Origin: Eledone cirrhosa
Lineage: Eukaryota
Reading direction: 5' to 3'
NCBI GenBank assembly: GCA_964016885.1
Contig: OZ024740.1
Coordinates: 337,342,001 to 337,406,000, forward strand
DNA length: 64,000 nt
The notes beneath the pieces are model-generated. The model did no database searches and was not told the DNA's origin. It saw only the letters and a list, made by a program, of their open reading frames with translations. The position numbers and the translations under genes are program-made. Positions 4,736 to 63,214 of this stretch are shown one piece after another; positions within the stretch are counted from its first letter, which is position 1, and each line of letters starts with the position of its first letter.

Positions 4736-5103
4736 ATACTTCAAATACACACCAACACACATATCTTCCTGGGGAGAAGGCAATCTTTATAGTGCTGGAT
4801 ACATCAAGAATCAAATATAGTGTTCAAGACAGAAGACAGACCTGGTATATACATGTGATGTGTATGGATGATGATCTTTAGGTTAAGAAGTGCTAGGAAA
4901 TACCTGTGGAAGATAGCAGCAGTAAAGGAAGACCGAGGTAGAGGTTGCAAGAACTTAATTTGGAGTTGCTAAGACTCAGAGCAGAGATGATGAAGGAATG
5001 TGTTGGAGAAGACCCATTCAACCAATGTAATCATGGAAAAGAGGACATGAAATGATGATGATATATGTACAAGTATGTATGTACAAGTATGTATGTATAT
5101 ATG

Positions 5104-8100
5104 TTCTTCTGGTTTTATAATTTCACAAAGTTTTACCAATAGAGAGAGAGTCGGTTTCTAACATAGACACAAGACTCTCTCATTGGAATTTACACAACAT
5201 CAACTAGGTAGATTATGTATGTACGCATGTGTAGATATGGATGTTATTGTATGTGTGGATGTGGATGTTTTGAGTTGTATGTGTGCATGTGTATATGCTT
5301 TGTATCTGTACATGTGTATATACAGTTATTAGATGCAAAATGTTTGGAATGTTTTACATATTTTTACTGTTCCATTAATGGATTGTACTTGTAGTTTCCT
5401 AACTAGTTGTGTTCTTTCTGTTCCTGTGAAGCCTAGCTTCTCAAGATTTGTATTGAGGCAGTTACTAACATACCCCAGTGCCCCAATAATCACAGGCATA
5501 AATCTGCAGGTGTAATCAGGGTGGAGTATCTGCAGATTTCTCATCAGTTCTGCATAAATATTCTCCTTTTCACTAATCTTTGATATTATATTGGCATCTG
5601 CTGGGCAGCTAATTTCCACTACTGTGCATGTTTTCTTCTCCCTGTCCCATATCATAATATCTGGTCTGTTATGCCTGCATTTTATTGGGGTTTTTACTGG
5701 AACATTCCACCAGTACTCTTTCATATTATGTACATGGATGTCTTCCACATTGTTGTAGCTTTTAATGTGTTTATTATCGGGGCTATCTTTTTTACGAACT
5801 GCATTGTACAGTGTTTTGGTCACTACATCATGCCTTATAGGTAGATAGTACCGCGATGACATCTTTGGACAGCTGCTGATGACATGGGTGATATCCTCAA
5901 TGTTAGTTCTGCAGAGTCTGCACTTGTTATCACATCTAGGTGTTTTGCCTGCATCCCTATCTCTTTTGTGAATCAGGTATTTTGTGCTAATCTCCTGTTC
6001 TTGGATTGCAAAAGCATATCCTTCAAAGTGGGAGCCAATATAGCGGTTGTTGGTCCAAGATAGATTACTTTCCTTCTCTATATTACTCTCACTCTGGAGC
6101 TTCCTGGCAACATATCCATGCATGATTTTTTGCTGATAGACATGCAGTTTTTCATCCATGGATTCACTGCGATACTGCTGAGCGACATCCCTGGGTGTGA
6201 GTTTTTGATTATCACACAGGGAATATCTCTTAAGGAGTTCCTTCCCAACTCTCATGATCTTATCTGTTTCATGCAGATAGACTTGCTCGAGAAGCGGGCT
6301 CCTACGCTTCGAGGTTCGTAGATGTTGTCGGAGAGATATGATGCGACATTCAAATGTTGTCTGGACTGATGTTAGGCCTCTGCCTCCATGCTTACGTTTC
6401 AAGTAAAGGCGGTTTATGTCACTATTGATGTGGAAGTTTCCGGTGTTGTTCAGTATTTTTCGAGTTCCAACATCAACAGCTGGAATTTCGTCTATCATCC
6501 AATTGAGTATTCCAAACGTTGGTGTTAGGACAGGCACAGCAAACACATTGTGAGCCACTGTTTTGTTTTGCACAGAGAGTTCCGAAGACCAGATCTTTCT
6601 TAACCGGGTGTAGTATTTCCTGGTTACGCGTTCTTTATTACAAATACCATTATAGGATATGTTCTCATCTATACCCAGGTATCTGTAGCAGTCCTCATCA
6701 GATATCAGTGAAACAGTTAGACCATTGATGACAATGTTGCTAGATTGGGTTGTTGTTTTTCCCCGAGTCATGTATGAGCATTTATCTTGGCCAAACTCCA
6801 TTCCTATATCCTTTGAGAACGTTGTAACCAGGTCAAGATTTTTCTTCATCCCATCCATGTTCTTGGCATAGAGTTTCAGATCGTCCACAAAGAAGTTATG
6901 GGTTAGGTTCGTATTTCTGTCCTCCTGTGAGCCAATGATGTATCCCTCACATTTCTTGAGCAGAAAGGACAAGGGGTTTAATGACAAGATGAACAATATC
7001 ACAAAGAGACTGTCTCCCTGAAATATACCCCTGCAATATTTTATTTTATCAGTGAAAATAGAGTCCTCCCTCTCTGTCTTTAACCTTAGGATAGTAGCCC
7101 AAGAAGAAGACAGCTTCTCTATGGCTCTGACAATAATGTCTGGGACTTTAGCAAGTTGGAGGGCCTCTATCATCCAAGAGTGGGGAACAGAATCGAAAGC
7201 TTTCTTGTAATCCAGCCAGACTGTAGTAATATTCCTCCTAAGTTGTCTCACCTCCGACATCGCAGTTTTGTTGATTAGGAGTTGTTCAGCACATCCCCAA
7301 ACCCTTTTCTTTCCAGCTGCTTGTTCATCTGTGATGATGTTATTATTTTCACAGTGATCTTGGAGGAATAGGTTCAGGCAGGCTGTATACATCTTATACA
7401 TCAGGTTCTGGCATGCAATGGGTCGGTAGTTTTTTGCCAAGTGGGTGTCTTTGTTCTTGGGGACCAGTAACGTTTGTGCTAATGTCAACCATTCTGGTAT
7501 AAGTGTATCTCCCTTAAGAACTTGTTGGTAGAGGTCAGTAAGATACCTCCGATAGAATATTAGTTTTTTGTACCAGTAGCCGACAATCATGTCTCTTCCT
7601 GGTGTTTTCTTATCTTGGAGTTTTCCTATCACAGTCTCAAGGGTACCCTCACTTATTTCGTATGTTTTTGTTGTAGTGTAGGAGCAATAGTTGTTTCGGA
7701 TTTCTCTTAGCCACACTGCATCTTGGTTGAAATTCTTCTTTTCACCCCATATTTTTCTCCAAAAGGAATCTGTCTTTCTGGGATGGGGCCTCAGTGACAC
7801 TTATTATTTTGCCCTTCATATCTCTATAGAGTGATGTTTGGTTTCGTCTGAATCTTTTATTAAGCATTTTTCTCTCATCTACCTTCTTCAGGAATTGGCG
7901 TTTTTCGCTAACAGCTCTCAATTCTTGGTTGAGGGTGATCAGCTTATATTGGAGAGTTCTTGTTCTACTGTTACCAAACATTGTCTCTATTTTATTTTTC
8001 ACTCTTTGTTGGTGAGGAGTGAGGTTTTTTTTGTGTTTGTTTGCATGTAAGGAGCATTGTCACATGTCCTATGTTTTTTCGTAGGTCAGCACTCTTTTTT

Positions 8101-12969: not shown

Positions 12970-13140
12970 AGAGCTGTTGAAATGGCTGAGCTCTTGCCAT
13001 TTCAACAGCTAAAAAACAATCTGAAACTAGCTGTTGAAATGGCAATAGCTCAGCCATCGGGTCTCAACTGTTTATAATATAAACATACTCTACTACCTCA
13101 AGTATCGAGTACTCTGTTGAGTAATGGTCTAACCTGTTTA
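12970..13140 (+). mobile_element. Older copy of the fold-back half-hammerhead element family
   Basis: Inverted arms containing GAAATGGC...GCCATC, followed by ACTCTACTACC..GAGTACT..ATGGTC as in 14816-15008. Adjacent to (TA)n. Confidence 0.65.
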
Positions 13141-13291
13141 AAACTGGTTTTATCTTGTATTTGTTTATATATGTAAATATATAAACAAATATTGTATGCG
13201 AAGCTCAAATTAACTTCGAGCTGAGGAAATAAATTTATAAGATGTAAGAAGTTCAGACAGACAATAACTGCAATTATTGTAAGTTGCTATA

Positions 13292-13376
13292 AAATAGCAT
13301 AGCATAGCATAGTATAGTATAGCATAGTTTAGTATAGCATAGCATAGCATAGTATAGCATAGTTTAGTATAGCATA
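13292..13376. repeat. (TAGCA/TAGTA)n pentanucleotide repeat
   Basis: Direct reading. Confidence 0.9.
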
Positions 13377-14724
13377 CACCTTGTATGGTGGTTGGTAACA
13401 TGAAGTGTATCCTGTTGCATAAACCATGCTCAAAAGATCAAAAGGACTCTTTAGTTGTGTGAAGGATCTAGACTCACCTAGTATATTCTGTAAAGTAGTT
13501 GGTGATAGGTTGGATATATGACTTTAGAAAACTTGCCAAACAAAGGGTTGGAAGGATCCTTCAGTTGTGCCATAGACATGATAACATGCCTAATATATAT
13601 CTATGTATATAAATTTCTGTGAAAAATGTGTCACTGACTTTAAAGTCTCACATCATACATGCATACACATACAAACACATCTTGATTATGTTTATGTTTA
13701 TGTGTATGTGTGGGTGTGTGTATGTGTGTATATATACATACATATATATATATATACAGAGAGAGAGAAAATTTATTGTATTATTCAGCATCTGTTAGTG
13801 TAATCAATTAATTTGATTATGTAACAAGAATCAGAAGCCACTTACAGTAGTGTTTTACTCAACGGTCGAATTATTTCATTTGGTAGATTTATATATATAT
13901 ATATATATGAATTTATTTACTCAAGAGATGTATCTAATTTATCATGCAAACAGCTGTACGTTATTCCATAACTTACCAAATGTTGGGTAGACAAAAATCT
14001 AATTGGACCTTTAATATGTTTTGAGAGTAGACTGTATTTAAGGTTAATTTGATATAGCACTTTGTATGGGAAATTCAATTATGGCACTATATATTATTGG
14101 GTGGACAACTTTCTATTGAAACCTTCAATATATTATGAGAGAGTAGACTGTATTTAAAATTAAATATAAATATATAACACTAAGTTATAATACATTACAA
14201 TCCATTACTATAACAAACATTCAATACAAATATATCGTAACTTATGTGATGGATGTGAAAAATGTAACTTTCTTTTTTTGCACACATACAAATTTGAACT
14301 ATACAGAAAATATCCTCGCATTGCAACCACCATAATGCACTAACATATTCGCTTAAAGTGCTTGTATTTCATGTAATACCTTGCCATACAGTACTCATAT
14401 ATACATGATACATTTACTTGTTCCATCCCTTTGTATATGACTAACGCATATACTATCTCTTTGATTTAATTATTAGACTATTCTCTGTATTATATGTATT
14501 ATCTGTTGCATGTATTCCAACCTATACTTTTAATCTTGTTTTTAAATTTAATTTTGATTTTAATCTTAATTCGAATTATTGTACAAATATAGTATAATAT
14601 AATATATGTCGCATCAATCCCACACTGTAAACATGAAACTGTTGTACACAACATCAATATATATATGTATCTGTATGTTTCTTTGGTTCAGTAGGAGGTC
14701 AATTATATGTACAAACATTAAAAA

Positions 14725-14771
14725 TGCTCCGAAGACTCCAAGCCTAGGTTTGGAAGAAACAATTGTCAGCG
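14725..14771 (+). ncRNA. Type I hammerhead ribozyme motif (U4C variant) at the 3' end of a probable PLE remnant (~13910-14800)
   Basis: Stem I TGCT/AGCG, core CCGAAGA, stem II TCCAAGC/GTTTGGA, GAAAC-AATT-GTC, AATAAA at 14772. Region bounded by (TA)n. Confidence 0.7.
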
Positions 14772-14815
14772 AATAAATGTTTTAAACATAACTTTGATTC
14801 TTATATATATATATA

Positions 14816-15005
14816 TAGGAACGAGTAGGACCCCGACGGCTGAGCTCAAGCCGTTTCGACGGCTAATTCAGTCCAGAATTAGCCGTCGAAACGGCTTGAG
14901 CTCAGCCGTCGGAGTCCTACTCGTTCCTATTACCCACTCTACTACCCTAATATTGAGTACTTTGGTGCATTATGGTCCATCTGGTTCCTTACCACATTTC
15001 CTTCG

Positions 15006-15008
<3 letters not shown>
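14816..15008 (+). mobile_element. Fold-back element: 54-bp inverted arms containing the 3' half of a hammerhead, plus a 79-nt tail
   Basis: Arms 14816-14869 and 14876-14929 (1 mismatch). GAAACGGCT-TGAGCTC-AGCCGTC at 14888-14910. Inserted in (TA)n. Second copy at 59634-60040. Confidence 0.85.
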
Positions 15009-22969: not shown

Positions 22970-25900
22970 TATCATCAACATCATTTAACGTCCATCTTCC
23001 ATGCTTGCATGAGTTTGGGTGGGAGTTTTTCCACTTGAGGCAAGATTGGTTGTCTTGCTTGTATAGGACTGTCTGGCGGGTTTTCTACGGCTGGATGCCC
23101 TTCCTAACACCAACCACTTTTACAGTGTGGACTGGGAGGTTTTTACCGTGTTACCTACATGGCCACATTACAGCGTGGACTGTGTGTTTTTTTTTCGTGA
23201 CACCTACACGACCTCATTTATTTCGGACTGGATGTTGTGGTACCAACATAACTTTACATCGAAAGGGGTGGTGTGGATGGGGTGGGGGTAGTGGGACGGG
23301 GGTGTATTTTTGTTAGAGGTGCCTACTGACTGTAGGTTTCGCTTTGTACTTAGGCAAGGCGGGTCTTCTGTATTACTGTGTAGTGCCAAAGATCTCGGTC
23401 CAGTGACATTAGTCTTGGAGAGGTGTAAGTGTGTGAGGTCGGAATTTATCAAGTCGTCCCAGGTTTTTCTGGGTCTGCCTACTCCGTGGCTACCGTCTAT
23501 CTTTATCGCCCTGCACTTTTTTATACAGCTGCCGTCTTTCATGCGCATCACGTGACCATACCAACGTAGTCTTCTCTCGAGTAAACAACATCTGATTCCT
23601 CTTATTCCTAATTTCTCTCATAGTTCATTTATGCTTTGCCGTTCACGTATATTACTATTACACATCCAACGGAGCATGCAAGCTTCGTTCCTCTCCAATC
23701 TGCGCATATCCTCTGCACACAATGCCCAAGTCTGACTGCCATGTAACATTGCTGTTCGTATGCAGGCATCATACAGCTTGCCTTTCATTTTTAGAGAGAA
23801 CCCTTTAGCGGTCAATAGTGGTATAAGCTCTTTGAACTTTTTCTATCCCGTTCTTACTCTAGCTACTGTACTTTCAGAGCACCCTCCACCACTAGGTAAC
23901 GGAAGGTGTCCACTATTTCTATAGAACCATCTGTGCAATGGAATGAGCTAGTATTCTGTGGGCACTTGCTGCTACTTATTGCACCTGAGTACCGGCCACA
24001 TATAAAATCTATATTCTTAGTTAGCTTATCTTTGATCCCACTACATCTTTTATGCACCCATACTTTGCAATTGGGACATAAAATGGAGTTTCTGCCTACC
24101 CCTTTCCTACACACTGAGCATGGCCATTTCCCAGATGGGACCAGTGCCCTATTTTCCTTCCTACAAACTAGAACTTTAGTCTTTGACAGGTTAATTTTAA
24201 GGCCATGCTTCCATGTTTGGAATTTCTTCTCTAGTTCAGCCATTGATTCAGCTATGAGCGTTAGATCATCTGCGTATAGAAGTTCCCACGGGCAGCCAGT
24301 CTTGAACTCCTCTGTTATAGCCTGAAGGGCAATAATAAATAGTAGGGGGCTAAGGACGGAGCCCTGATGAACACCAACTTTTACGCTAAACTCTTCACTA
24401 TATTCGTTGTTAATTCTAACCTTGCTGACTGTTTCTTTAAACATGGCTTGTATAGCTCTCACAAGCCATTCATCAACACCTAGTTTCCTAAGAGCCCACC
24501 AGATAATAGAACGGGGGAACTCTGTCAAAGGCTTTCTCCAAGTCAACAAAAGCTAAGTATAGGGGTTTACTTTTAGCTAGGTACTTCTCCTGTAGTTGTC
24601 GTACAATGAAAAGAGCGTCTGTTGTACTTTTACCTGACACAAACCTGAACTGCATTTCGTCTAGATCAATTCGCTCTCTGATTAGTTGCGCTATTACTTT
24701 TTCTGTGACCTTCATGACCTTGTCAATTAATTTAATGCCTCTATAGTTTCCCCTATCTAGGGCATCTCCTTTACCCTTGTAGCAGTTAATGATGATGCTG
24801 CTGCACCAGTCCTTCGGAATGACCCCATTCTGCATGACTTGATTTACTATCTCGGGTGACCATGGTGTGTCCCACCGTTCCAGAGGCTTTCGGCATTTCA
24901 GCAACTATTTCCGAAGGCCCAGCCGCCTTGCCCATCTTCATGTCTTTGATCGCCTTACTTATTATACTACCTTCAACTTGCACTGCTGGTCCCTCTATTG
25001 GATCGATGGGGGGAGACTGTCTTTCTCCCATTTATTCTCCTCATTTAGTAGCCTTTCGTAGTGACACTTCCAAGCTACCTTCTTATCAGCGTCTGTGATG
25101 GCAAGTACACCATCATCATTAAGGACACACTTCTGCCCGACAATATCACGGTTTACCGTGACACATTGCCTAGCAATCCTGAACACCTCAGGGTTTTGGT
25201 CCTCGCGTTGTAGAACATGCTTGAACTTTCTTTCCTCTGCTTCTCTTCTTGCGAAGTACACTTGTCTCCTAGCTTCCCTCCTGGCCACTTGATAGTCTTC
25301 TCTACTTTCCCCATCCCGCCATACTTTCCAAGCCTGCTTTTTGGCCTTGATCAACTCCTCCACCTTACTGTTCCACCACCAAGTTACTCTCCTCCTGCCT
25401 ATAGGTCTGCTCCAGCCACAGATGTCAAGTGTCGTCTTCAGCAAGTTAGCTTTCAGGAATTCCCACTGTTCCTCTATATTCTACGACTCTAATTGCTCTT
25501 CCTTACTGTCAAAAGCATCAAGTAATATGCTTTTAAATTTATTACTGGCTGTGGGGTCCTTTAACTTCCATATTTTTCTCCTGAGGATAGTCCTCCTCTG
25601 TTGTTGAGTACATCTCGTCCTGACTATAAGGTCGCTAACTATGAGGCTATGTTGGGAGGTGCATTCTTCATGGGGGAGGGATTTAGTGTTTACAACAGAC
25701 ACTATGTCTCGTCTTCTGGTAAGGATATAATCTACCTGGCTGGTGTGTTCCCCTGATCTATAGGTGATCAAGTGATTGTCTCGTTTTTTGAAGTTAGTGT
25801 TACAGATAGTTAGGTTATTTGCGTCACAGAATTCCAGGATTCTGGAGCCTTCCTCATTTCTAGTACCAAACCCATAGCCTCCATGGATTCCGTCATAGCC

Positions 25901-26466
25901 GTCACAGTGTTGTCCAACGTGACCATTTAGGTCGCCAGCAATAATTATATAGTCACTGTCGGTTAGTTGGGAGGTAATGAGCATTAACGACTCATAGAAT
26001 CTGTCTTTTATAATGCCAGGCAGTCCGGGTTGGGGTGCATACGCAGATATTATTGTCACAGTAGTTCTATTGAGGACAAGTCTTATTTTAATTATTCTGT
26101 CGTTCACTCTATTTACGTCTATTATCTTGTCTGCCCACTTTTCTGCTACCATGATTCCTACTCCACCCAGCCCATTGTCATTACCCACAATGAATCTAGC
26201 AGACCCACCCCTCCACCTGGTCTCTTGAATACAGCAAACATCGACCTCCTTACGGTCAAGCATTTCTACAACCTCGTTAGAGCAACCTTTTAAGGTACCT
26301 ACATTCATGGTACCAACTCTGAAGTTTTGGATTGCGTTTGGAGGGTAGGAACGGTGGGGCGCAAGGGGTGGGGTAGGTGGGTGAGGGAGATGGGGTTATG
26401 TTAGCCATCTGCTGCCGAAATAAAGAGGAGGAGTCCTTGCATTCTTGTCCGGCAGCATGAGGTGAA
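22970..26466 (-). mobile_element. Near full-length RTE LINE (APE endonuclease + RT), frameshifted
   Basis: ORF 25481-26308 has TMNVG, IQETRW, SAYAPQ, GDLNGH and QVDYIL (APE). The RT is split over several frames. 3'UTR and (ATC)n tail at ~22970. Confidence 0.93.
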
Positions 26467-27442: not shown

Positions 27443-27524
<82 letters not shown>

Positions 27525-27527
<3 letters not shown>

Positions 27528-30147
27528 CCAGGAATAAATTCCAAAGCATATTACTTGATGCTTTCGACAGTAAGGAAGAGCATTTAGAGTCGGACAATAT
27601 AGAGGGACAGTGGGAATTCCTGAAGGCAAACCTGCTGTTGGCGGCAGATGAAGTCTGTGGATGGAGCAGGCCTATAGGCAGGAGGAGAGTAACATGGTGG
27701 TGGAACAGTAAGGTGGAGGGGTCAATTAAGGCCAAAAAGCAGGCTTGGAAAGTATGGCGGGATGGGGGAAGTAGAGAAGATTATCAAGTGGCCAGGAGGG
27801 AAGCTAGGAGACAAGTGTACTTCGCAAGAAGGGAAGCAGAGGAAAGAAAGTTCAAGCATGTTCTACAACGCGAGGACCAAAAATGTGAGGTGTTCAGGAC
27901 TGCTAGGCAATGTGTCAAGGAAAACCGTGATATTGTCGGGGAGAAGTGTGTACTTAATGATGACGGCGTACTTGCCATCACTGACGCTGATAAGAAGGTA
28001 GCTTGGAAGTGTCACTATGAAAGGCTACTAAATGAGGAGAATAAATGGGAGAAAGACAGTCTCCCCCACATCGACCCAATAGGGGGACCAGCAGTGTTAG
28101 TCGAGGGTAGTATAATAAGTAAGGCAATCAAGGATATGAAGATGGGTAAGGCAGCTGGGCTTTCGGAAATAGTTGCTGAGATGCTGAAGGCATCTGGCAC
28201 GGTGGGACACACCATGGTCACCCGGATAGTTAACCAAGTCGTACAGAATGGGGTTGTTCCGAAGGACTGGCGTAGCAGCATCATCGTTAACTGTTATAAG
28301 GGTAAAGGAGATGCCCTAGATAGGAGTAACTATAGAGGCATTAAATTAATCGACCAGGTCATGAAGGTCACGGAAAAAGTTATAGCGCAACTAATCAGAG
28401 AGAGAATTGATCTAGATGAAATGCAGTTCGGGTTTGTGTCAGGCAAAAGTACCACAGACGCTCTTTTCATTGTACGACAACTACAGGAGAAGTACCTAGC
28501 TAAAAGTAAACCCCTCTACTTAGCTTTTGTCGACTTGGAGAAAGCCTTTGACAGAGTCCCCCGTTCCATTATCTGGTGGGCTCTTAGAAAACTAGGTGTC
28601 GACGAATGGCTTGTGAGAGCTATACAAGCCATGTATAAAGAAACAGTCAGCAAGGTTAGAATTAACAACAAATATAGTGAAGAGTTTAGCGTAAAAGTTG
28701 GCGTCCATCAGGGCTCTGTTCTCAGCCCCCTACTATTTATTATTGCCCTTCAGGCTATAACAGAGGAGTTCAAGACTGGCTGCCCATGGGAACTCCTATA
28801 CGCAGACGACCTAACACTCATAGCTGAATCAATGGCTGATCTAGAGAAGAAATTCCAAACATGGAAGCACGGCCTAGAATCAAAAGGCCTTAAAATTAAT
28901 CTGGCTAAGACCAAAGTTCTAGTTTGTAGGAAAGAAAATAAGGCGGCGGTCCCTTCCGGGAAATGGCCATGCTCAGTGTGTAGGAAAGGCGTAGGTAGAA
29001 ACTCCATTTTGTGTCAGAAATGCAAAGTATGGGTGCATAAAAGATGTAGTCGGATCACAGGTAAGCTAACTAAGAACATAGATTTCACATGTGGCCGGTG
29101 CTCTGGTGCAATAAGTAGCAGCAAGTTCCCACAAAATACTAGCTCCTTCAACTGCGCAGAGGGTTCTATAGAAATAGTGGACAGCTTCCGTTACCTGGGT
29201 GACAAAATCAGCAGTGGGGGAGGGTGCTCTGAAAGTACAGTAGCTAGAGTCAGAACTGGATGGAAAAAGTTCAGAGAGCTTATACCACTATTAGCCACTA
29301 AAGGGTTCTCCCTAAAAATGAAAGGCAGGTTGTATGATGCCTGCATACGAACAGCAATGTTGCATGGCAGTGAGACCTGGGCATTGTGTGCAGAGGATAT
29401 ACGCAGACTAGAGAGGAACGAAGCTTGCATGCTCCGCTGGATGTGTAATAGTAATATACGTGAACGGCAAAGCATAAACGAACTAAGGAAAAAATTAGAA
29501 ATAAGAGGGATCAGATGTTGTTTACTCGAGAGAAGGCTACGTTGGTATGGTCACGTGATGCGCATGAAAGACGACAGCTGTATAAAAAAGTGCAGGGCAA
29601 TAAAGATAGACGGTAGCCACGGAATAGGCAGACCTAGAAAAACCTGGGACGAGCTGATAAACTCCGACCTCACACACTTACACCTCTCCAAGACAATGTC
29701 ACTGGACCGAGACCTTTGGCGGTACTCAGTAATAGAGAAGACCCGCCTTACCTAAATACATAGTAAAACCTACTACAGTCAGTAGGCATCTCTAACAAAA
29801 TACACCCGCGACCCACCACCCCTACCCCATCCACACCGCCCCCTTCTATGTAAAGTTGTGTTGGTGCCACACCATCCAGGCCGAAACAAATGAGATCGTG
29901 TAGGTGTCATGACAAAAAAACACACAGTCCACGCTGTAATGTGGTCATGTAGGCAACACGGTAAAAACCTCCCAGTCCACACTGTAAATGTGGTTCGTGT
30001 TAGGAAGGGCATCCAGCTGTAGAAAACCTGCCAGACAGTCCTATGCGAGCAAGACAATCACTCTTGCCTCAAGTGGGAAAACCCCCCATCCAAACCCATG
30101 CAAGCGTGGAACACGGACGTTAAACGTTGATGATGATGATGATGATA
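27525..30147 (+). mobile_element. Young 5'-truncated RTE LINE
   Basis: Same family as 22970-26466, intact RT frame, 3'UTR and (GAT)n tail. Confidence 0.95.
27638..29755 (+). CDS. RTE reverse transcriptase ORF (705 aa, endonuclease lost by truncation)
   Basis: [43 protein letters not shown]-like finger, LRWYGHV. No internal stops. Confidence 0.9.
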   Translation: MAADEVCGWSRPIGRRRVTWWWNSKVEGSIKAKKQAWKVWRDGGSREDYQVARREARRQVYFARREAEERKFKHVLQREDQKCEVFRTARQCVKENRDIVGEKCVLNDDGVLAITDADKKVAWKCHYERLLNEENKWEKDSLPHIDPIGGPAVLVEGSIISKAIKDMKMGKAAGLSEIVAEMLKASGTVGHTMVTRIVNQVVQNGVVPKDWRSSIIVNCYKGKGDALDRSNYRGIKLIDQVMKVTEKVIAQLIRERIDLDEMQFGFVSGKSTTDALFIVRQLQEKYLAKSKPLYLAFVDLEKAFDRVPRSIIWWALRKLGVDEWLVRAIQAMYKETVSKVRINNKYSEEFSVKVGVHQGSVLSPLLFIIALQAITEEFKTGCPWELLYADDLTLIAESMADLEKKFQTWKHGLESKGLKINLAKTKVLVCRKENKAAVPSGKWPCSVCRKGVGRNSILCQKCKVWVHKRCSRITGKLTKNIDFTCGRCSGAISSSKFPQNTSSFNCAEGSIEIVDSFRYLGDKISSGGGCSESTVARVRTGWKKFRELIPLLATKGFSLKMKGRLYDACIRTAMLHGSETWALCAEDIRRLERNEACMLRWMCNSNIRERQSINELRKKLEIRGIRCCLLERRLRWYGHVMRMKDDSCIKKCRAIKIDGSHGIGRPRKTWDELINSDLTHLHLSKTMSLDRDLWRYSVIEKTRLT

Positions 30148-50939: not shown

Positions 50940-53370
50940 TATGACTTCCTTGAGCTAGTGCTGGACTCGAATTGGTCCCAAGTAGTCACCTCCCCAACAA
51001 GAGGTGACAACACTTTGGACCTACTCTTCACCACTACTCCTGAAACGGTTATTAGTATTACTACTGAGGAACATTTAGATGACTCTGATCATGCTATGAT
51101 CATTGCCAATCTATCCCTCATGGGCAGTAACAAAAACCACAACCATCTCCAAACTACTCACTTTGACTGGAATAAAGGAGACTGAAACTGTTACTGCACC
51201 GAGTTGCAATGTCCAAACTGGCTTGAGTTCTACGACTCTGGAGATGTCAACACTGTACTCCAGAACATCCTGAGCTCAATATGGACAGCATGTGCAGCAT
51301 CGGTGCCACGTAAGCAGAAAAAACTTCCCAAAAGTGCAATTTGGGAGACTGCAGCAGCCCGTCTTGCCACAAAAGAACGTTGTAATGCTGAACGTGAGTA
51401 CAAACTGCATAAATCAGATATCAATAGGAAGAGGCGAAATAAATCATCCAACCAAAGGCAGTGCTTCAATTTGAGCAGCGCATAGCAACCGGCCCTGACA
51501 GTAAGGTGTTCTGAAAGTATGTTCACTCAAAGCAGAGGCCTCACTCTCCAGTTGGTCCTCTTCGCAATCCCCACACAAGGCAGGTTACTGACGACCCCAA
51601 GGAATGCGCAGAGCTCATTGCTGAATGCTATGGAGGCATTTTCACTATTGAAGACCAGAGTGTACCGTCTCCACCACTTATGACACCGGATTCTATTACA
51701 ACCATGGAATTTACACCTGCAATGCTGCAATGTCACCTTAAAAATAAACGCAACCATGCCTCTCCTGGTCTTGATGGTGTTACGTACCTGCTTCTCAAAC
51801 GTGGTGGGTACTTCCTTCTGCACCAGCTATCACGCTTCTTCCAATTCTATCTGAACAACGGTGCTACTCAAGAACAGTGGAAAAGTGCCAGTGTCATTCC
51901 TCTGTTCAAAAAGGGTGACCGCACATCACCTGTGAACTATCGTCCAGTCAGTCTTACTAGCTGCATTGCCAAACTGATGGAATCCTGTGTCAGAGAAATA
52001 CTTTGGAATTTTTAGAACTCTCACAGTCTTATCCGGCAATTTGGATTTATCCCTAACTTCAGCTGATGTGATCAACTTATCGAGTTTCTTGAAGACATCA
52101 CCGGGATTACTGATGGCGGTTCATGGGTGGATGTTGTTTACCTTGACTTTGCTAAAGCTTTCAATTCTGTGCTACACAAAATGCTTATGGCAAAACTCTC
52201 TGCAATGGGTGTGAAGGATGATCTTTTTAACTGGTTGAAGTCCTTCATTCTCAGTCGAAGAGAGGTAGTCACGGTTCTGGGACAGCATTCCTCACCATAT
52301 GAGATGTCATCTGGTGTACCACAGGGATCTATTCTTGGCCCCCTTTTGTTTGTGGCATATATTAATGACATAGATGCCAACTTAAAGAATGCCACAGTAC
52401 TGAAATATGCAGTTGACATCAAGCTGTACCTTGAGATAAATAGGCCAGATCCTGAACACTATAGATCTTGCCTGCAATCTGACCTGGACACAATGCAACA
52501 ATGGATCACAGACTGGAAACTCAAGCTAGCTGGGGACAAGTGCACCACCATGCATTTTGGGAGTAAAAACCCAGCGTCCACATACTCCCTCTACAACACT
52601 AATATCAATAAGTCTTCTTGTGAACGTGACCTGGGCATTACGGTCAGCAGCGATTTGCGTTGGACGAAGCACGTCTCTAAAATTGACAAGAAGGCCGAGA
52701 GTGTCTTAGCATCACCCAGCAAGACCTTTGTTATCCACTCTCCAGCTATCTATTTAAAGCTGTACATGGCTATGGTGCGGCCACACTTAGAATTTGCATC
52801 ACCAGTCTGGAACCCCTATCTTGCTCAGAACATTGATCGCCTGGAAACTGTTCAGAGACGTGCAACCAAGCGAATACCTTCCATCAGGCATCTACCATAC
52901 TCTGAACGCCTTGCTTCCCTGGGCATGGATACATTGAAGCTCCGACGTCTGGCAACTGACTTGGTAAACACCCACAAAATTATTAACTATCTTGCCAATA
53001 ACAACCCTGAGTACATTTTTGATTTCCATGTGTCTAACACACGTGGGTATGCCCACAAAGTCAGAAAACAGCACGGTTCCCATGACTTTCGGAAACATTT
53101 TTTCATGCTCAGAGTTGCTGAAGCATGGAACAAACTACCTGCATCAGTTGTTAGCTGTCGAAACACTGCATCCTTTAAAACCTCCATGCTTCCTGAGATT
53201 CGCCAACACTACACCTAATATTCCCCCTCCATACACATACACACATGGATATCATGACTCATACACTATTCACTTCCCGGACATTTGTATATTATTCTAT
53301 GTACTATACATGCACCTTTGACGAGTTGTAGTGCACCTGAGCACTTTACACAATAATTTCATTATTATTT
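50940..53370 (+). mobile_element. CR1-clade LINE, 5'-truncated, decayed
   Basis: PTRGDNTLDL..SDH (APE end), NYRPVSLTS, VYLDFAKAF, SGVPQGSILGPLLF, ERDLG, VRPHLE..VWNP, WNKLP, (ATT)n tail. Confidence 0.92.
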
Positions 53371-57133: not shown

Positions 57134-57489
57134 AAACTATCCCCATCCTACTCGCGCAACTTTCCCCAGCCAGAGCCAAAACAAGCCGCTCGACAAGTGT
57201 GCTGATGTCGCACGTGCCGTGCCAACAGGGAGAGGGCACGCACATGCCGACGAGATACAGATGGCAGAGAAGATTGTGGGACAGCTCACCTGGCTGCATC
57301 GTCTCCAGAGCCAGGGTCACCTACACCAGCACTCGAGACCACCACAATTAAGGGACCCAGAGTGGCCGCCGTGACACTAGACCAGGTGTCATACCGACAG
57401 CCATTACTGGCACCCCAAACGTCACACCAGTGCTGCTGCTGAATGTCAATCTCCGCACCCTCCTCGGCCACAGCTCCCTACCCCCCAAC

Positions 57490-59633: not shown

Positions 59634-59636
<3 letters not shown>

Positions 59637-60040
59637 CGAAGGAAATGTGGTAAGGAACCAGTTGGACCATAACGCACCAAAGTACTCAATACTTAGGGTA
59701 GTAGAGTGGGTAATAGGAACGAGTCGGACCCCGACGGCTGAGCTCAAGCCATTTCGACGGCTAATTCTGGACTAAAAAAAAAAAAAAAAAAAAAAGCACC
59801 ACTGGTGTGACTTTTGGGGTGCCAGTAATGGCTGTCGGTATGACACCTGGTTTAGTGTCAGCGGCGGCCACTCTGAGTCCCTTAATTGTGGTCGTCTCGA
59901 GTGCTGGTGTAGGTGACCCTGGCTCTGGAGACTATGTAGCCAGGTGAGCTATCCCACAATCTTCTTTTTTTTTTTTTTTTAGTCCAGAATTAGCCGTCGA
60001 AACGGCTTGAGCTCAGCCGTCGGGGTCCTACTCGTTCCTA
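59634..60040 (-). mobile_element. Fold-back half-hammerhead element carrying a 169-nt cargo between A22 and T16
   Basis: Reverse-complement match to 14816-15008, with the loop replaced by a copy of 57268-57436 in reverse orientation. Confidence 0.85.
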
Positions 60041-62406: not shown

Positions 62407-63214
62407 GGGGATTCCTTTCTTCGTTTCTGTGCCTTTCCTTTCTTCTATCCTACGCCATTTTTATATATATATATATACATATATATATGTTTGTGTGTGT
62501 GTGTGTCTCTATGGTATGACTGTGAGTGTTTTTATGGTAAGCCTGTATGTATGTATGCATATATGTATGTATGTATGCATGCATGTATATATGTGGGTGT
62601 GTATGCATGTATATACATGAATGTTTGTATGTGTATGTATGTCTGTGTGTGTGAATATATCTGTAATATATGATTGTGTGTGTGTGCATGATTGTGAGTG
62701 TGTGTATGTGTGAGTGTTTGTATGGCATTATTGTGTGTGAGTGTGTAGGTGTGTATCTGTGTGACATGATTATGTATATGCATGTATAGGCATACAAAAG
62801 TGTTTGTGTGTATATGTGTGTGTGTATGTGTTTGTGTGTATGTATGTGTGTGTATGCGTGTGTGTGTGTATGTATGTGTATCAGTGTGAGTGTGTGTATG
62901 TCACTGTGTGTGAGTGTGTCTTATAAGGCGTATCATGGAATGGTTAATACATTTTCAGTAATTACAAGAGAGGTCGCTTCTCACAGAAATTCCCATTTTC
63001 TACATCAATTTCATTATTTCCACCACAACCACCATGTATATTGATGTAGTTGCATGCTTTTATGTGTGTGCTTATGTGTTTGTGAGTTGTTAAGTGTGTT
63101 GATATGGGTGTGTATATACATATTTATTTAAAGAAAAGTTCAGCCCTTGCTAACAGGGAAAGTGGATGTTAAAATGATGATATGTATCTATCTATTTAGG
63201 AGGGGGGGGGGGGG

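What the first reader, a model, noticed from the sequence alone, without database searches (positions are those of the whole stretch)
12970..15008. Repeated fold-back family holding only the 3' half of a hammerhead
Copies at 14816-15008, 59634-60040 and 12970-13140 contain stem II 3' strand-GAAA-stem III (ACGGCT/AGCCGT around palindromic TGAGCTCA)-GUC. The CUGANGA strand is replaced by an inverted copy of the same segment. The two young copies end at the same nucleotides (TAGGAACG.. and ..CTTCGTTA) in (TA)n, so this looks like a defined mobile unit rather than a one-off truncation. The older copy keeps stem III paired (ATGGC/GCCAT, AUC site). Inference: a MITE-like or retrozyme-like derivative that may be cleaved in trans by a parental pLTR.
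Basis: partly seen in the sequence, partly recalled or inferred. Interest (0 to 1): 0.72.

Follow-up and report, generated by a model that had tools for sequence, protein, structure and literature searches.

The report
Penelope retrotransposon stumps, half a hammerhead
These small hairpin-shaped repeats in TA microsatellites are truncated, mirror-image insertions of a known kind of jumping gene (a Penelope-like retrotransposon), cut short inside its hammerhead-like RNA motif, likely because they were copied from the short leader of the element's own messenger RNA.

Summary
All three window copies are fold-backs carrying stem II 3' strand-GAAA-stem III-GUC on each arm, without a CUGANGA strand.

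They are not a MITE or a retrozyme. They are stump insertions of a Hydra-clade Penelope-like element (PLE). A full-length copy elsewhere in the genome (L110) has the same 3' end and tail. It also has a 786-aa frame with the clade's motifs and a complete hammerhead-like three-way junction, whose 5' core is YUGAGAA rather than CUGANGA.

- **Two fixed ends.** Each insertion is an inverted copy plus a direct copy of the element's 3' end. One copy starts at ..TTCCTA, the other 79 nt further on at ..CGTTA, which gives the one-sided tail. Of 87 fold-backs, 84 had exactly one tail and none had two.
- **No defined unit.** Fold points differ among near-identical copies, so each stump was made anew.
- **Why only half a hammerhead.** Most arms stop at one spot in the stem II loop. 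A TATA-like box lies 29 nt upstream, and extra G and oligo-A additions occur at that spot. I infer a capped transcription start there, untested.

The layout is already described for PLEs. This scan has noted the same kind of stump before, in this genome and in others.

The parts
14816..14869 (-). Copy 1, inverted arm. It is a copy of the element's last 54 nt, starting at the inner RT start site (..TTCCTA, read on the minus strand) directly next to (TA)n. It has no tail.
   Evidence: It is 92.7% identical to three arm copies in the full-length locus L110.
14870..14929 (+). Copy 1, direct arm, 60 nt. It holds stem II 3' strand (14870-14887), GAAA (14888-14891), helix III (14892-14908), U16.1-C17 (14909-14910) and the helix I 3' strand (14911 onward). 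Position 14870 is the common arm end, called '+1' here.
   Evidence: Read.
14930..15008 (+). Copy 1, one-sided 79-nt tail. It runs from the end of the arm to the outer RT start site (..CGTTA), next to (TA)n.
   Evidence: In L110 the same tail links the upstream arm to the element body.
59634..59713 (-). Copy 2, tail (reverse orientation).
   Evidence: 96% identity to the tail of copy 1.
59714..59773 (-). Copy 2, direct arm (sense on the minus strand), 60 nt, ending exactly at +1.
59774..59980 (.). Copy 2, fold junction. It consists of 22 A, a 169-nt fragment (59796-64) of an unrelated high-copy repeat, and 16 T.
   Evidence: The fragment has 616 first-look candidates elsewhere, whose similarity runs on beyond both its ends.
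59981..60040 (+). Copy 2, inverted arm (reads sense on the plus strand), 60 nt, from +1 to ..TTCCTA next to (TA)n. It has no tail.
12970..13140 (+). Copy 3, an older stump of a diverged subfamily. It has an inverted arm at about 12971-13011, a direct arm at about 13029-13080 (GAAA 13036-13039, GCCATC 13053-13058) and a tail-like stretch to about 13139.
   Evidence: It is 70% identical over 157 nt to copy 1, and its tail part is 75% identical over 52 nt.

Best explanation
The three fold-backs are dead-on-arrival stump insertions of a Hydra-clade Penelope-like retrotransposon, likely made when both cut strands of a (TA)n target primed reverse transcription of the element's RNA.

**Shown**
- The arms and tail are the 3' end and tail of a full-length element of about 3 kb, which encodes a reverse transcriptase with a C-terminal GIY-YIG-type nuclease.
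- Each insertion has one end at ..TTCCTA and the other 79 nt further on at ..CGTTA.
- The fold point differs from copy to copy.
- The full element carries a complete hammerhead-like three-way junction, and the stumps break off inside its stem II loop.

**Inferred from PLE biochemistry in print**
- The element's protein cuts both strands of a (TA)n target.
- Each 3'-OH primes a cDNA at one of two fixed internal start sites on the RNA.
- The two cDNAs are then joined head to head.

**Inferred here, untested**
- Most arms are 60 nt long because the template was the element's own mRNA, which likely starts at a capped transcription start inside the stem II loop.
- That leader would hold both start sites but only the 3' half of the ribozyme.
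For: **Parent element**
- Long copies continue upstream of the arm into one shared sequence.
- L110 holds three pieces in order: an inverted copy with tail (2344-2211), a direct arm plus tail plus body (4854 onward), and a 3' arm ending in (TA)n (7972-8026).
- The 786-aa frame carries RWR, DKT, YRDD, CNC-x5-C, IY..YIG, and CNLC...CKH. These positions are conserved in 8 relatives that are 37-42% identical.
- They match the Hydra-clade description, which also names size under 3 kb, (TA)n insertion and hammerheads (PMC8557442, section 11 read whole).
- 661 relatives scored E <= 1e-5. The best 120 listed are mostly about 700 aa long and lie on contigs of 2.3-3.5 kb.
- The nearest Atlas clusters carry GIY-YIG and RVT_1 in part of their members. 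This is a lead only.

**Layout**
- An inverted 5'-truncated copy plus a one-sided tail is described for PLEs (PMC8557442, passages).
- Cutting and extension of both strands, and a tail that is the stretch between two RT start sites, are shown in vitro for an Anolis element (PMC11167929, main text).
- One-tail rule: 14 of 14 arm pairs in 25 motif-sampled loci. Of 87 fold-backs across four samples, 84 had one tail, 3 had none detected and 0 had two.
- In 21 of the 29 tail-sampled copies an inverted arm was found. In all 21 its outer end was intact and lay beside TA-rich flank, clean (TA)n in most.

**Made anew each time**
- The centre differs among the 30 best matches.
- Arms differ independently in the 29 tail-sampled copies and in the 30 junction-word loci, one of them the window copy itself.

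**Common arm end and transcription-start reading**
- In 19 of 29 tail-sampled copies the direct arm measures 57-73 nt. Five are too short to detect, three measure 47-54 nt, and two measure 141 and 361 nt.
- 6571 arms have a non-T base directly before +1.
- In window copy 2 both arms end exactly at +1, and each is followed by an oligo-A run on its cDNA strand. Similar runs occur in L101, L122 and L187.
- The filler base next to +1 is G in 9, C in 6 and A in 1 of 16 arms.
- TATTTAAATA lies 29 nt upstream of +1 in L110.
Against: **Family assignment**
- Pfam found no RT or GIY-YIG domain in the 786-aa frame at E <= 0.1, and only RVT_1 at E 0.14 on a sub-piece.
- PDB sequences gave nothing below E 2.7.

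**Hammerhead**
- No Rfam hammerhead model matched the window or the parent, even at E <= 10. For one search only the best 150 of 189 rows were visible.
- None of 19 long copies has the canonical core: CTGAGAA 8, TTGAGAA 7, TTGATAA 2, GTGAGAA 1, CTGAAAA 1.
- The parent fold is no more stable than shuffles, z = -0.33.

**Transcription-start reading**
- The excess of G is modest. After my own hand re-sorting of the 16 filler cases it is about 8 G, 3 C and 1 A, p about 0.02.
- In the first 100 listed arms the count is G 48, C 44, A 8 by hand. There, G is partly explained by an abutting inverted arm ending ..TTCTG (5 of 11 G cases).
- Many arms run 3-10 nt past +1.
- The upstream copy in L110 runs more than 230 nt past +1, so some templates start further upstream.
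- No RNA data could be laid.

**Other**
- L164 has arms from two different subfamilies. A single-template model does not predict this.
Confidence: 0.88

Rival explanations
1. One reading: the 193-bp unit is a defined non-autonomous mobile unit (MITE-like or retrozyme-like) that is copied as a whole and may be cut in trans by the ribozyme half of a parental pLTR.
For: - Copy number is high and the outer ends are identical.
- The unit keeps both RT start sites and the tail.
- Its flanks are (TA)n on both sides, so a read-through transcript could hide its true ends.
- A parental element with the other half of the motif exists.
Against: - Fold points and centre letters differ among copies 94-99% alike.
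- Arm lengths vary independently of each other.
- The inverted arm was never seen truncated from its outer side (0 of the 21 found), as 5' truncation of a unit RNA would give.
- An apparent shared asymmetry between the arms (A at 14913) is only a point mutation found in 142 against 6166 exact copies.
- The 55-bp hairpin of -118 kcal/mol would outcompete trans pairing.
- There are no tandem units with a full ribozyme.
Confidence: 0.07
2. A cut-and-paste DNA transposon: a fold-back or Stowaway-type MITE with long terminal inverted repeats and TA target duplication.
For: - The fold-back reads TA-GGAAC...GTTCC-TA, and all copies sit in TA repeats.
Against: - The unit is asymmetric: its two outer ends are not inverted repeats of each other.
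- Four of the 21 loci that could be read hold the tail alone, with (TA)n on its 5' side.
- One-arm copies exist.
- Both arms are the 3' UTR end of an RT-encoding element.
- Arm length varies from under 25 nt to thousands of bases.
Confidence: 0.02
3. Same stump origin, but the common arm end reflects reverse transcriptase stalling or switching template at the structured, A/U-rich stem II loop, not an RNA 5' end.
For: - The end lies at the base of a small distal hairpin of stem II in the predicted fold.
- Ends are spread over about 10 nt.
- Long templates that pass this point exist.
Against: - Oligo-A runs added exactly at +1 on both cDNAs of window copy 2 fit run-off at a template end better than a stall.
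- Similar runs occur in L101, L122 and L187.
- There is an excess of G as the added base.
- A TATA-like box lies 29 nt upstream.
Confidence: 0.35

Closest known systems
Hydra clade of C-terminal-endonuclease Penelope-like elements (Craig, Yushenova, Rodriguez, Arkhipova 2021, PMC8557442)
   Same: - A single ORF in an element of about 3 kb.
- The motifs RW(K/R), DKT and CxCX5C linker, with CxxC and CxH around the conserved E and N.
- Insertion into (TA)n.
- A hammerhead-type motif at the repeat end.
- An inverted 5'-truncated copy and a one-sided tail.
   Different: - The tail is 79 nt, against the 30-40 bp given for PLEs.
- The ribozyme core is YUGAGAA with a stem-loop II of about 54 nt, whereas the paper calls Hydra hammerheads canonical.
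- I did not place the protein in a tree with named Hydra families.
Poseidon of Anolis carolinensis, internal initiation of reverse transcription (Frangieh et al. 2024, PMC11167929)
   Same: - Both target strands are cut and extended.
- There are two fixed internal RT start sites, and the tail is the stretch between them.
- The target is AT-rich.
- The ribozyme is not needed for insertion in vitro.
   Different: - It belongs to a different clade.
- Here every fold-back checked has one end from each site (84 of 87). The in vitro work saw no difference between the strands.
- Here the start sites lie after the ribozyme, not inside the ORF.
[quoted passage not shown]
   Same: - A type I motif in the repeat ends.
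- A U3-A8 core variant is reported there, for the Schistosoma Cercyon element.
- Helix II is long, and loop 3 is palindromic.
- Pairs occur on opposite strands 100-700 bp apart.
- Most motifs are single and ascribed to truncated PLEs.
   Different: - Helix III here is a stable 6-bp stem, not 1-2 bp.
- Stem-loop II is far longer.
- About half of the long copies have C3 with A8, which is unpaired in that reading.
Animal non-LTR retrozymes (Cervera and de la Pena 2020, recalled and seen only in a reference list; Li, Clavereau and Pollet 2026, bioRxiv 10.64898/2026.07.22.740005, abstract read)
   Same: - Small non-coding hammerhead-bearing repeats derived from PLE pLTRs.
   Different: - Retrozymes are head-to-tail tandem units, each with a whole ribozyme.
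- These are single head-to-head stumps with half a ribozyme.

Membership tests
Hammerhead ribozyme (type I) | 5' core strand CUGANGA between helix I and helix II | tested here: not met
   - **Stumps:** absent on both strands. The proposed parent word gave 1 hit against 1 for the control.
- **Parent:** 0 of 19 long copies are canonical. All have A where G8 is expected: CTGAGAA 8, TTGAGAA 7, others 4.
Hammerhead ribozyme (type I) | GAAA, helix III closed by A15.1-U16.1, and cleavage triplet UH | tested here: met
   Window 14888-14910 and 59981-60040, and L110 7984-8006.
Hammerhead ribozyme (type I) | Three-way junction with the core unpaired | tested here: inconclusive
   - The parent's minimum-energy fold is exactly this junction, with 7, 3 and 1 unpaired bases, but z = -0.33.
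- The stump folds as one 55-bp hairpin instead.
Hammerhead ribozyme (type I) | Match to a curated covariance model | tested here: not met
   No hammerhead family appeared at the gathering score or at E <= 10. In one search only the best 150 of 189 rows were visible.
Hammerhead ribozyme (type I) | Self-cleavage | not testable with these tools
   Needs an in vitro transcript assay.
Penelope-like element, Hydra clade | Single ORF with reverse transcriptase and C-terminal GIY-YIG nuclease, element about 3 kb or less | tested here: inconclusive
   - The motifs YRDD and IY..YIG are present and conserved.
- The body is about 3.0 kb.
- Pfam detects neither domain.
Penelope-like element, Hydra clade | Clade motifs: RWK, DKT, CxCX5C linker, CxxC and CxH | tested here: met
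   RWR, DKT, CNCPDRSIC, CNLC and CKH are present in the frame. They are conserved in 8 relatives. The criteria come from PMC8557442, section 11.
Penelope-like element, Hydra clade | Insertion into (TA)n | tested here: met
   All 30 loci. In one search, the flank beside all 21 inverted arms found is TA-rich, clean (TA)n in most.
Penelope-like element (any clade) | pLTR or partial tandem, inverted 5'-truncated copy, one-sided tail | tested here: met
   The L110 layout. One tail in 84 of 87 fold-backs.
MITE / fold-back DNA transposon | Terminal inverted repeats at both outer ends, fixed unit, TSD | tested here: not met
   - The outer ends are not inverted repeats.
- Arms vary in length.
- Tail-only copies exist.
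- A TSD cannot be read inside (TA)n.
Non-LTR retrozyme | Head-to-tail tandem units, each with a complete hammerhead | tested here: not met
   - The stumps are single and head-to-head.
- The one tandem seen (257-bp units, L108) lacks the 5' core.

The most novel reading that the evidence does not exclude
The element's promoter fires from inside its own ribozyme. A capped transcription start in the stem II loop would give every mRNA a 60-nt leader that holds only the 3' half of the hammerhead. Both reverse-transcription start sites would lie at +60 and +139. About two thirds of all insertions would then be abortive run-off copies of that leader, and their fold points would be a genomic record of the RNA's capped 5' end.
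Probability: 0.45. Interest if true: 0.55.

Novelty: new member of a known kind. Interest (0 to 1): 0.33.

Why it matters
The main result is a clean-up. A puzzling "half-ribozyme MITE" turns out to be the ordinary debris of a very abundant Penelope-like element, with thousands of stumps in this 3-Gb genome. Repeat annotation should file it there.

The family is also a useful natural data set for a poorly understood insertion mechanism:
- It shows two fixed start sites 79 nt apart.
- It shows a strict one-of-each rule for the two ends.
- It shows a sharp common end of both cDNAs, with added G and oligo-A.

If that common end is the capped mRNA start, it would tie together promoter, ribozyme and abortive insertion in one short stretch. 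It would also explain why half-hammerheads litter such genomes.

Tried and rejected
- **Rfam.** The whole window at the gathering score and at E <= 10, and the parent 3' end at E <= 10, gave no hammerhead or other ribozyme. The hits were microRNA-like matches on TA/TG repeats only.
- **Exact canonical parent.** The pattern gave 6 hits, all point variants inside the palindrome. The pattern gave 1 hit against 1 for the control.
- **Parent inside the window.** None was found. The large RT frames there (5329-7800 and others) are LINE-type, some with a PHD finger.
- **SINE reading.** This was my first idea. The tRNA-like look of the 169-nt insert in copy 2 came to nothing, because the insert is an internal fragment of a longer repeat.
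- **Shared arm asymmetry.** I tested the A at 14913 against G in the other arm as a sign of unit inheritance or editing.
  - Given A in the tailed arm, the other arm is G in 18 of 21 fold-backs.
  - The A word occurs 142 times against 6166 for the G word, about 2%.
  - That is an ordinary point mutation, made to look like a class by my own sampling.
- **Fold-point census.** The census therefore rests on samples of about 30 loci.
- **RNA evidence.** No RNA holder was listed. Six runs of unknown kind are kept as contigs only, and I did not lay them.
- **Tail-to-body junctions.** I looked for full-length copies that start at +1. Only two places are in the held loci, too few to use.
- **PDB sequence search of the ORF.** Nothing below E 2.7.
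Full report
**What is there.**

Copy 1 (14816-15008) is a 114-nt fold-back followed by a 79-nt tail, lying between TA repeats.
- Its arms are 55 nt long and 98% complementary.
- As RNA the unit folds into a single hairpin of -118 kcal/mol, z = -17.
- On the arm next to the tail I read, in order: the 3' strand of a long stem II (14870-14887), GAAA (14888-14891), a 6-bp helix III around the loop TGAGCTC, and GUC ending at 14910.
- The other arm is the reverse complement, so no CUGANGA strand exists.

Copy 2 (59634-60040) is the same unit in the other orientation. Copy 3 (12970-13140) is a relative about 70% identical.

**How common, and where.**

The window lies in a 3.0-Gb assembly.
- The 193-nt unit gave 1861 first-look candidates. 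All 40 scored were full-length or nearly so (189-193 of 193 bases) at 94-100% identity, one being the window copy itself.
- In all 30 fetched loci the unit lies between TA repeats with the same two ends.
- Exact words give larger numbers: 8871 places for a 26-nt arm word and 6166 for a 35-nt arm-tail junction word. The reversed controls gave 0.

**Not a fixed unit.**

Among the 30 best matches, the few letters at the centre of the hairpin differ from copy to copy while the rest is about 97% alike. I then drew a sample that does not depend on the arms: the 29 best matches to the tail alone. In it the two arms vary independently.
- The direct arm measures 57-73 nt in 19 copies and 47-54 nt in 3.
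- It is too short to detect in 5 copies, and measures 141 and 361 nt in 2.
- An inverted arm is present in 21 of the 29. Its outer end is always intact, and the flank beside it is TA-rich, clean (TA)n in most.

In one search, 21 of 30 loci could be read. Four of them hold the tail alone with (TA)n on its 5' side, and several hold the inverted arm joined straight to the tail. Arms that start at fixed outer points and break off inside at varying points are what target-primed reverse transcription gives. A cut-and-paste element does not produce this pattern.

**The parent.**

The 26-nt arm word occurs as minus/plus pairs at distances from 26 bp to 3.9 kb, and also as a 257-bp tandem.
- Long copies continue upstream into one shared sequence that reads ..ACCCC-YTGAGAA-G(A/C)TCGGCTA.. 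before the arm.
- I fetched one full-length place (L110). It holds an inverted copy with tail (2344-2211), a direct arm plus tail (4854-4987) running into a 3.0-kb body, and a 3' arm (7972-8026) ending in (TA)n.
- The body has one open frame of 786 aa.
- Pfam sees nothing in it at E <= 0.1, and only RVT_1 at E 0.14 on a sub-piece.
- The frame does carry RWR, DKT, YRDD, CNC-x5-C, IY..YIG, and CNLC...CKH. These positions are conserved in eight relatives that are 37-42% identical.
- They are the marks that Craig et al. give for the Hydra clade of Penelope-like elements, together with size under 3 kb, insertion into (TA)n and hammerheads (PMC8557442, section 11 read whole).
- 661 relatives scored E <= 1e-5. 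The best 120 listed are mostly about 700 aa long and lie on contigs of 2.3-3.5 kb.

**The ribozyme motif.**

In the parent, L110 7918-8011 folds at minimum energy into a three-way junction. It leaves 7 bases (UUGAGAA), 3 bases (GAA) and 1 base (C) unpaired, which is the hammerhead layout. The energy is no better than shuffles, z = -0.33.
- The 5' core is never canonical. Among 19 long copies I counted CTGAGAA 8, TTGAGAA 7, TTGATAA 2, GTGAGAA 1 and CTGAAAA 1.
- A U3-A8 core variant has been reported in Schistosoma PLEs (PMC4209133, passages), so the TTGAGAA form has a precedent.
- The CTGAGAA form would leave C3 and A8 unpaired in that reading.
- No Rfam hammerhead model matches.
- I therefore call it hammerhead-like. 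Whether it cuts is open.

The stumps hold its 3' half because they break off in the loop of stem II.

**Two ends, one tail.**

PLE insertions with an inverted 5'-truncated copy and a tail on one side are in print (PMC8557442, passages). For an Anolis element the protein cuts and extends both target strands in vitro, starting at two nearby internal sites of the RNA. The tail is the stretch between those sites (PMC11167929, main text).

Here the two sites are the end of the arm (..TTCCTA) and the end of the tail (..CGTTA), 79 nt apart.
- In 25 motif-sampled loci all 14 arm pairs had exactly one tailed end.
- Over four samples, 84 of 87 fold-backs had one tail, 3 had none detected and 0 had two.
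- Two of those four samples were drawn with a tail in the query. The motif sample was not, and it gave 12 of 12.

**Why the arms stop where they do.**

Most arms end at or within a few bases of one position, window 14870, which I call +1.
- 6571 arms have a non-parental base directly before it.
- In window copy 2 both arms are exactly 60 nt long. Each is followed, on its own cDNA strand, by an oligo-A run of 22 or 16 bases, with a 169-nt piece of another repeat caught between them. Similar runs stand at the same spot in L101, L122 and L187. Added bases at a precise end fit run-off at the end of a template.
- The base added next to +1 is G more often than chance would give. It is G 9, C 6, A 1 in the 16 arms that a script classed as having filler.
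- By my own re-sorting, two of the C cases are a subfamily with C in that place, one is a mutated abutting arm, and one G is ambiguous. That leaves about 8, 3 and 1, p about 0.02.
- An extra G is what copying a cap gives. This rests on recalled knowledge of L1 and processed pseudogenes, not on a call.
- In L110 the word TATTTAAATA begins 29 nt upstream of +1, and the bases around +1 resemble an initiator.

I infer that the element's mRNA starts here, inside the ribozyme's stem II loop. Its leader would then hold only the 3' half of the ribozyme and both RT start sites, and most insertions would be short run-off copies of that leader.

Against this reading:
- Ends are spread over about 10 nt.
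- Some templates clearly start further upstream.
- Part of the G excess in the raw list comes from abutting arms.
- No RNA runs were available.

I put this part at about even odds. The rival is RT stalling at the loop.

**What I discarded.**
- An apparent rule that the tailed arm has A and the other arm G at 14913 turned out to be a single-site mutation present in about 2% of copies, which my sampling had picked out.
- The MITE, SINE and retrozyme readings fail on the points above.

**Standing.**

This is a new member of a known kind: Penelope stumps in TA repeats, in a layout already described. Earlier notes of this scan reached the same kind of reading in this genome and in others. I tested the layout, the one-tail rule, the clade motifs and the core variant myself.

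The points that may be worth a specialist's look are the 79-nt tail, the strict one-of-each rule, and the possible promoter inside the ribozyme.

Noticed in passing
window 59774-59980; related copy at window 57272-57437: The fold point of copy 2 holds 22 A, a 169-nt internal fragment of an unrelated repeat, and 16 T. That repeat has 616 first-look candidates at 92-95% identity, and their similarity runs on past both ends of the fragment. The nearest copy lies 2.4 kb away in the opposite orientation. It looks like a template switch caught between two A-tailed cDNAs.
   Followed up: partly
L108 1528-2300 (G000:C1:27009513-27010300): Three head-to-tail 257-bp units follow an inverted stump. Each is made of arm, tail, 5'UTR and the first 23 nt of the ORF, ending in an AC-rich stretch. 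This may mark a third RT start site with repeated template jumps. The units look like a retrozyme array but lack the 5' ribozyme core.
   Followed up: partly
L164 (G000:C2:73897574 region): One stump has its inverted arm from one subfamily (..CCAGTAAG..) and its direct arm from another (..CTACTCG..). Its two cDNAs therefore came from different RNAs.
   Followed up: no
L174, L175, L178: A subfamily of long copies has C instead of T just before +1. This gives TCAGTCC, an even closer match to an initiator word.
   Followed up: no
window 5329-7800 (-), 27443-29755 (+), 23863-26395 (-), 52067-53218 (+): There are several LINE-type RT frames, some with a PHD finger and an AP-type endonuclease. None is related to the fold-back family.
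   Followed up: partly
window 13690-13760, 62543-62615 and many others: Sub-threshold mir-297-like and similar microRNA matches all fall on TA/TG microsatellites. They are composition artefacts.
   Followed up: no
G000:C3:345711843-345729507: Four exact copies of the A-variant arm-tail word lie 4-8 kb apart on one strand. This is probably a segmental duplication that carries one stump.
   Followed up: no
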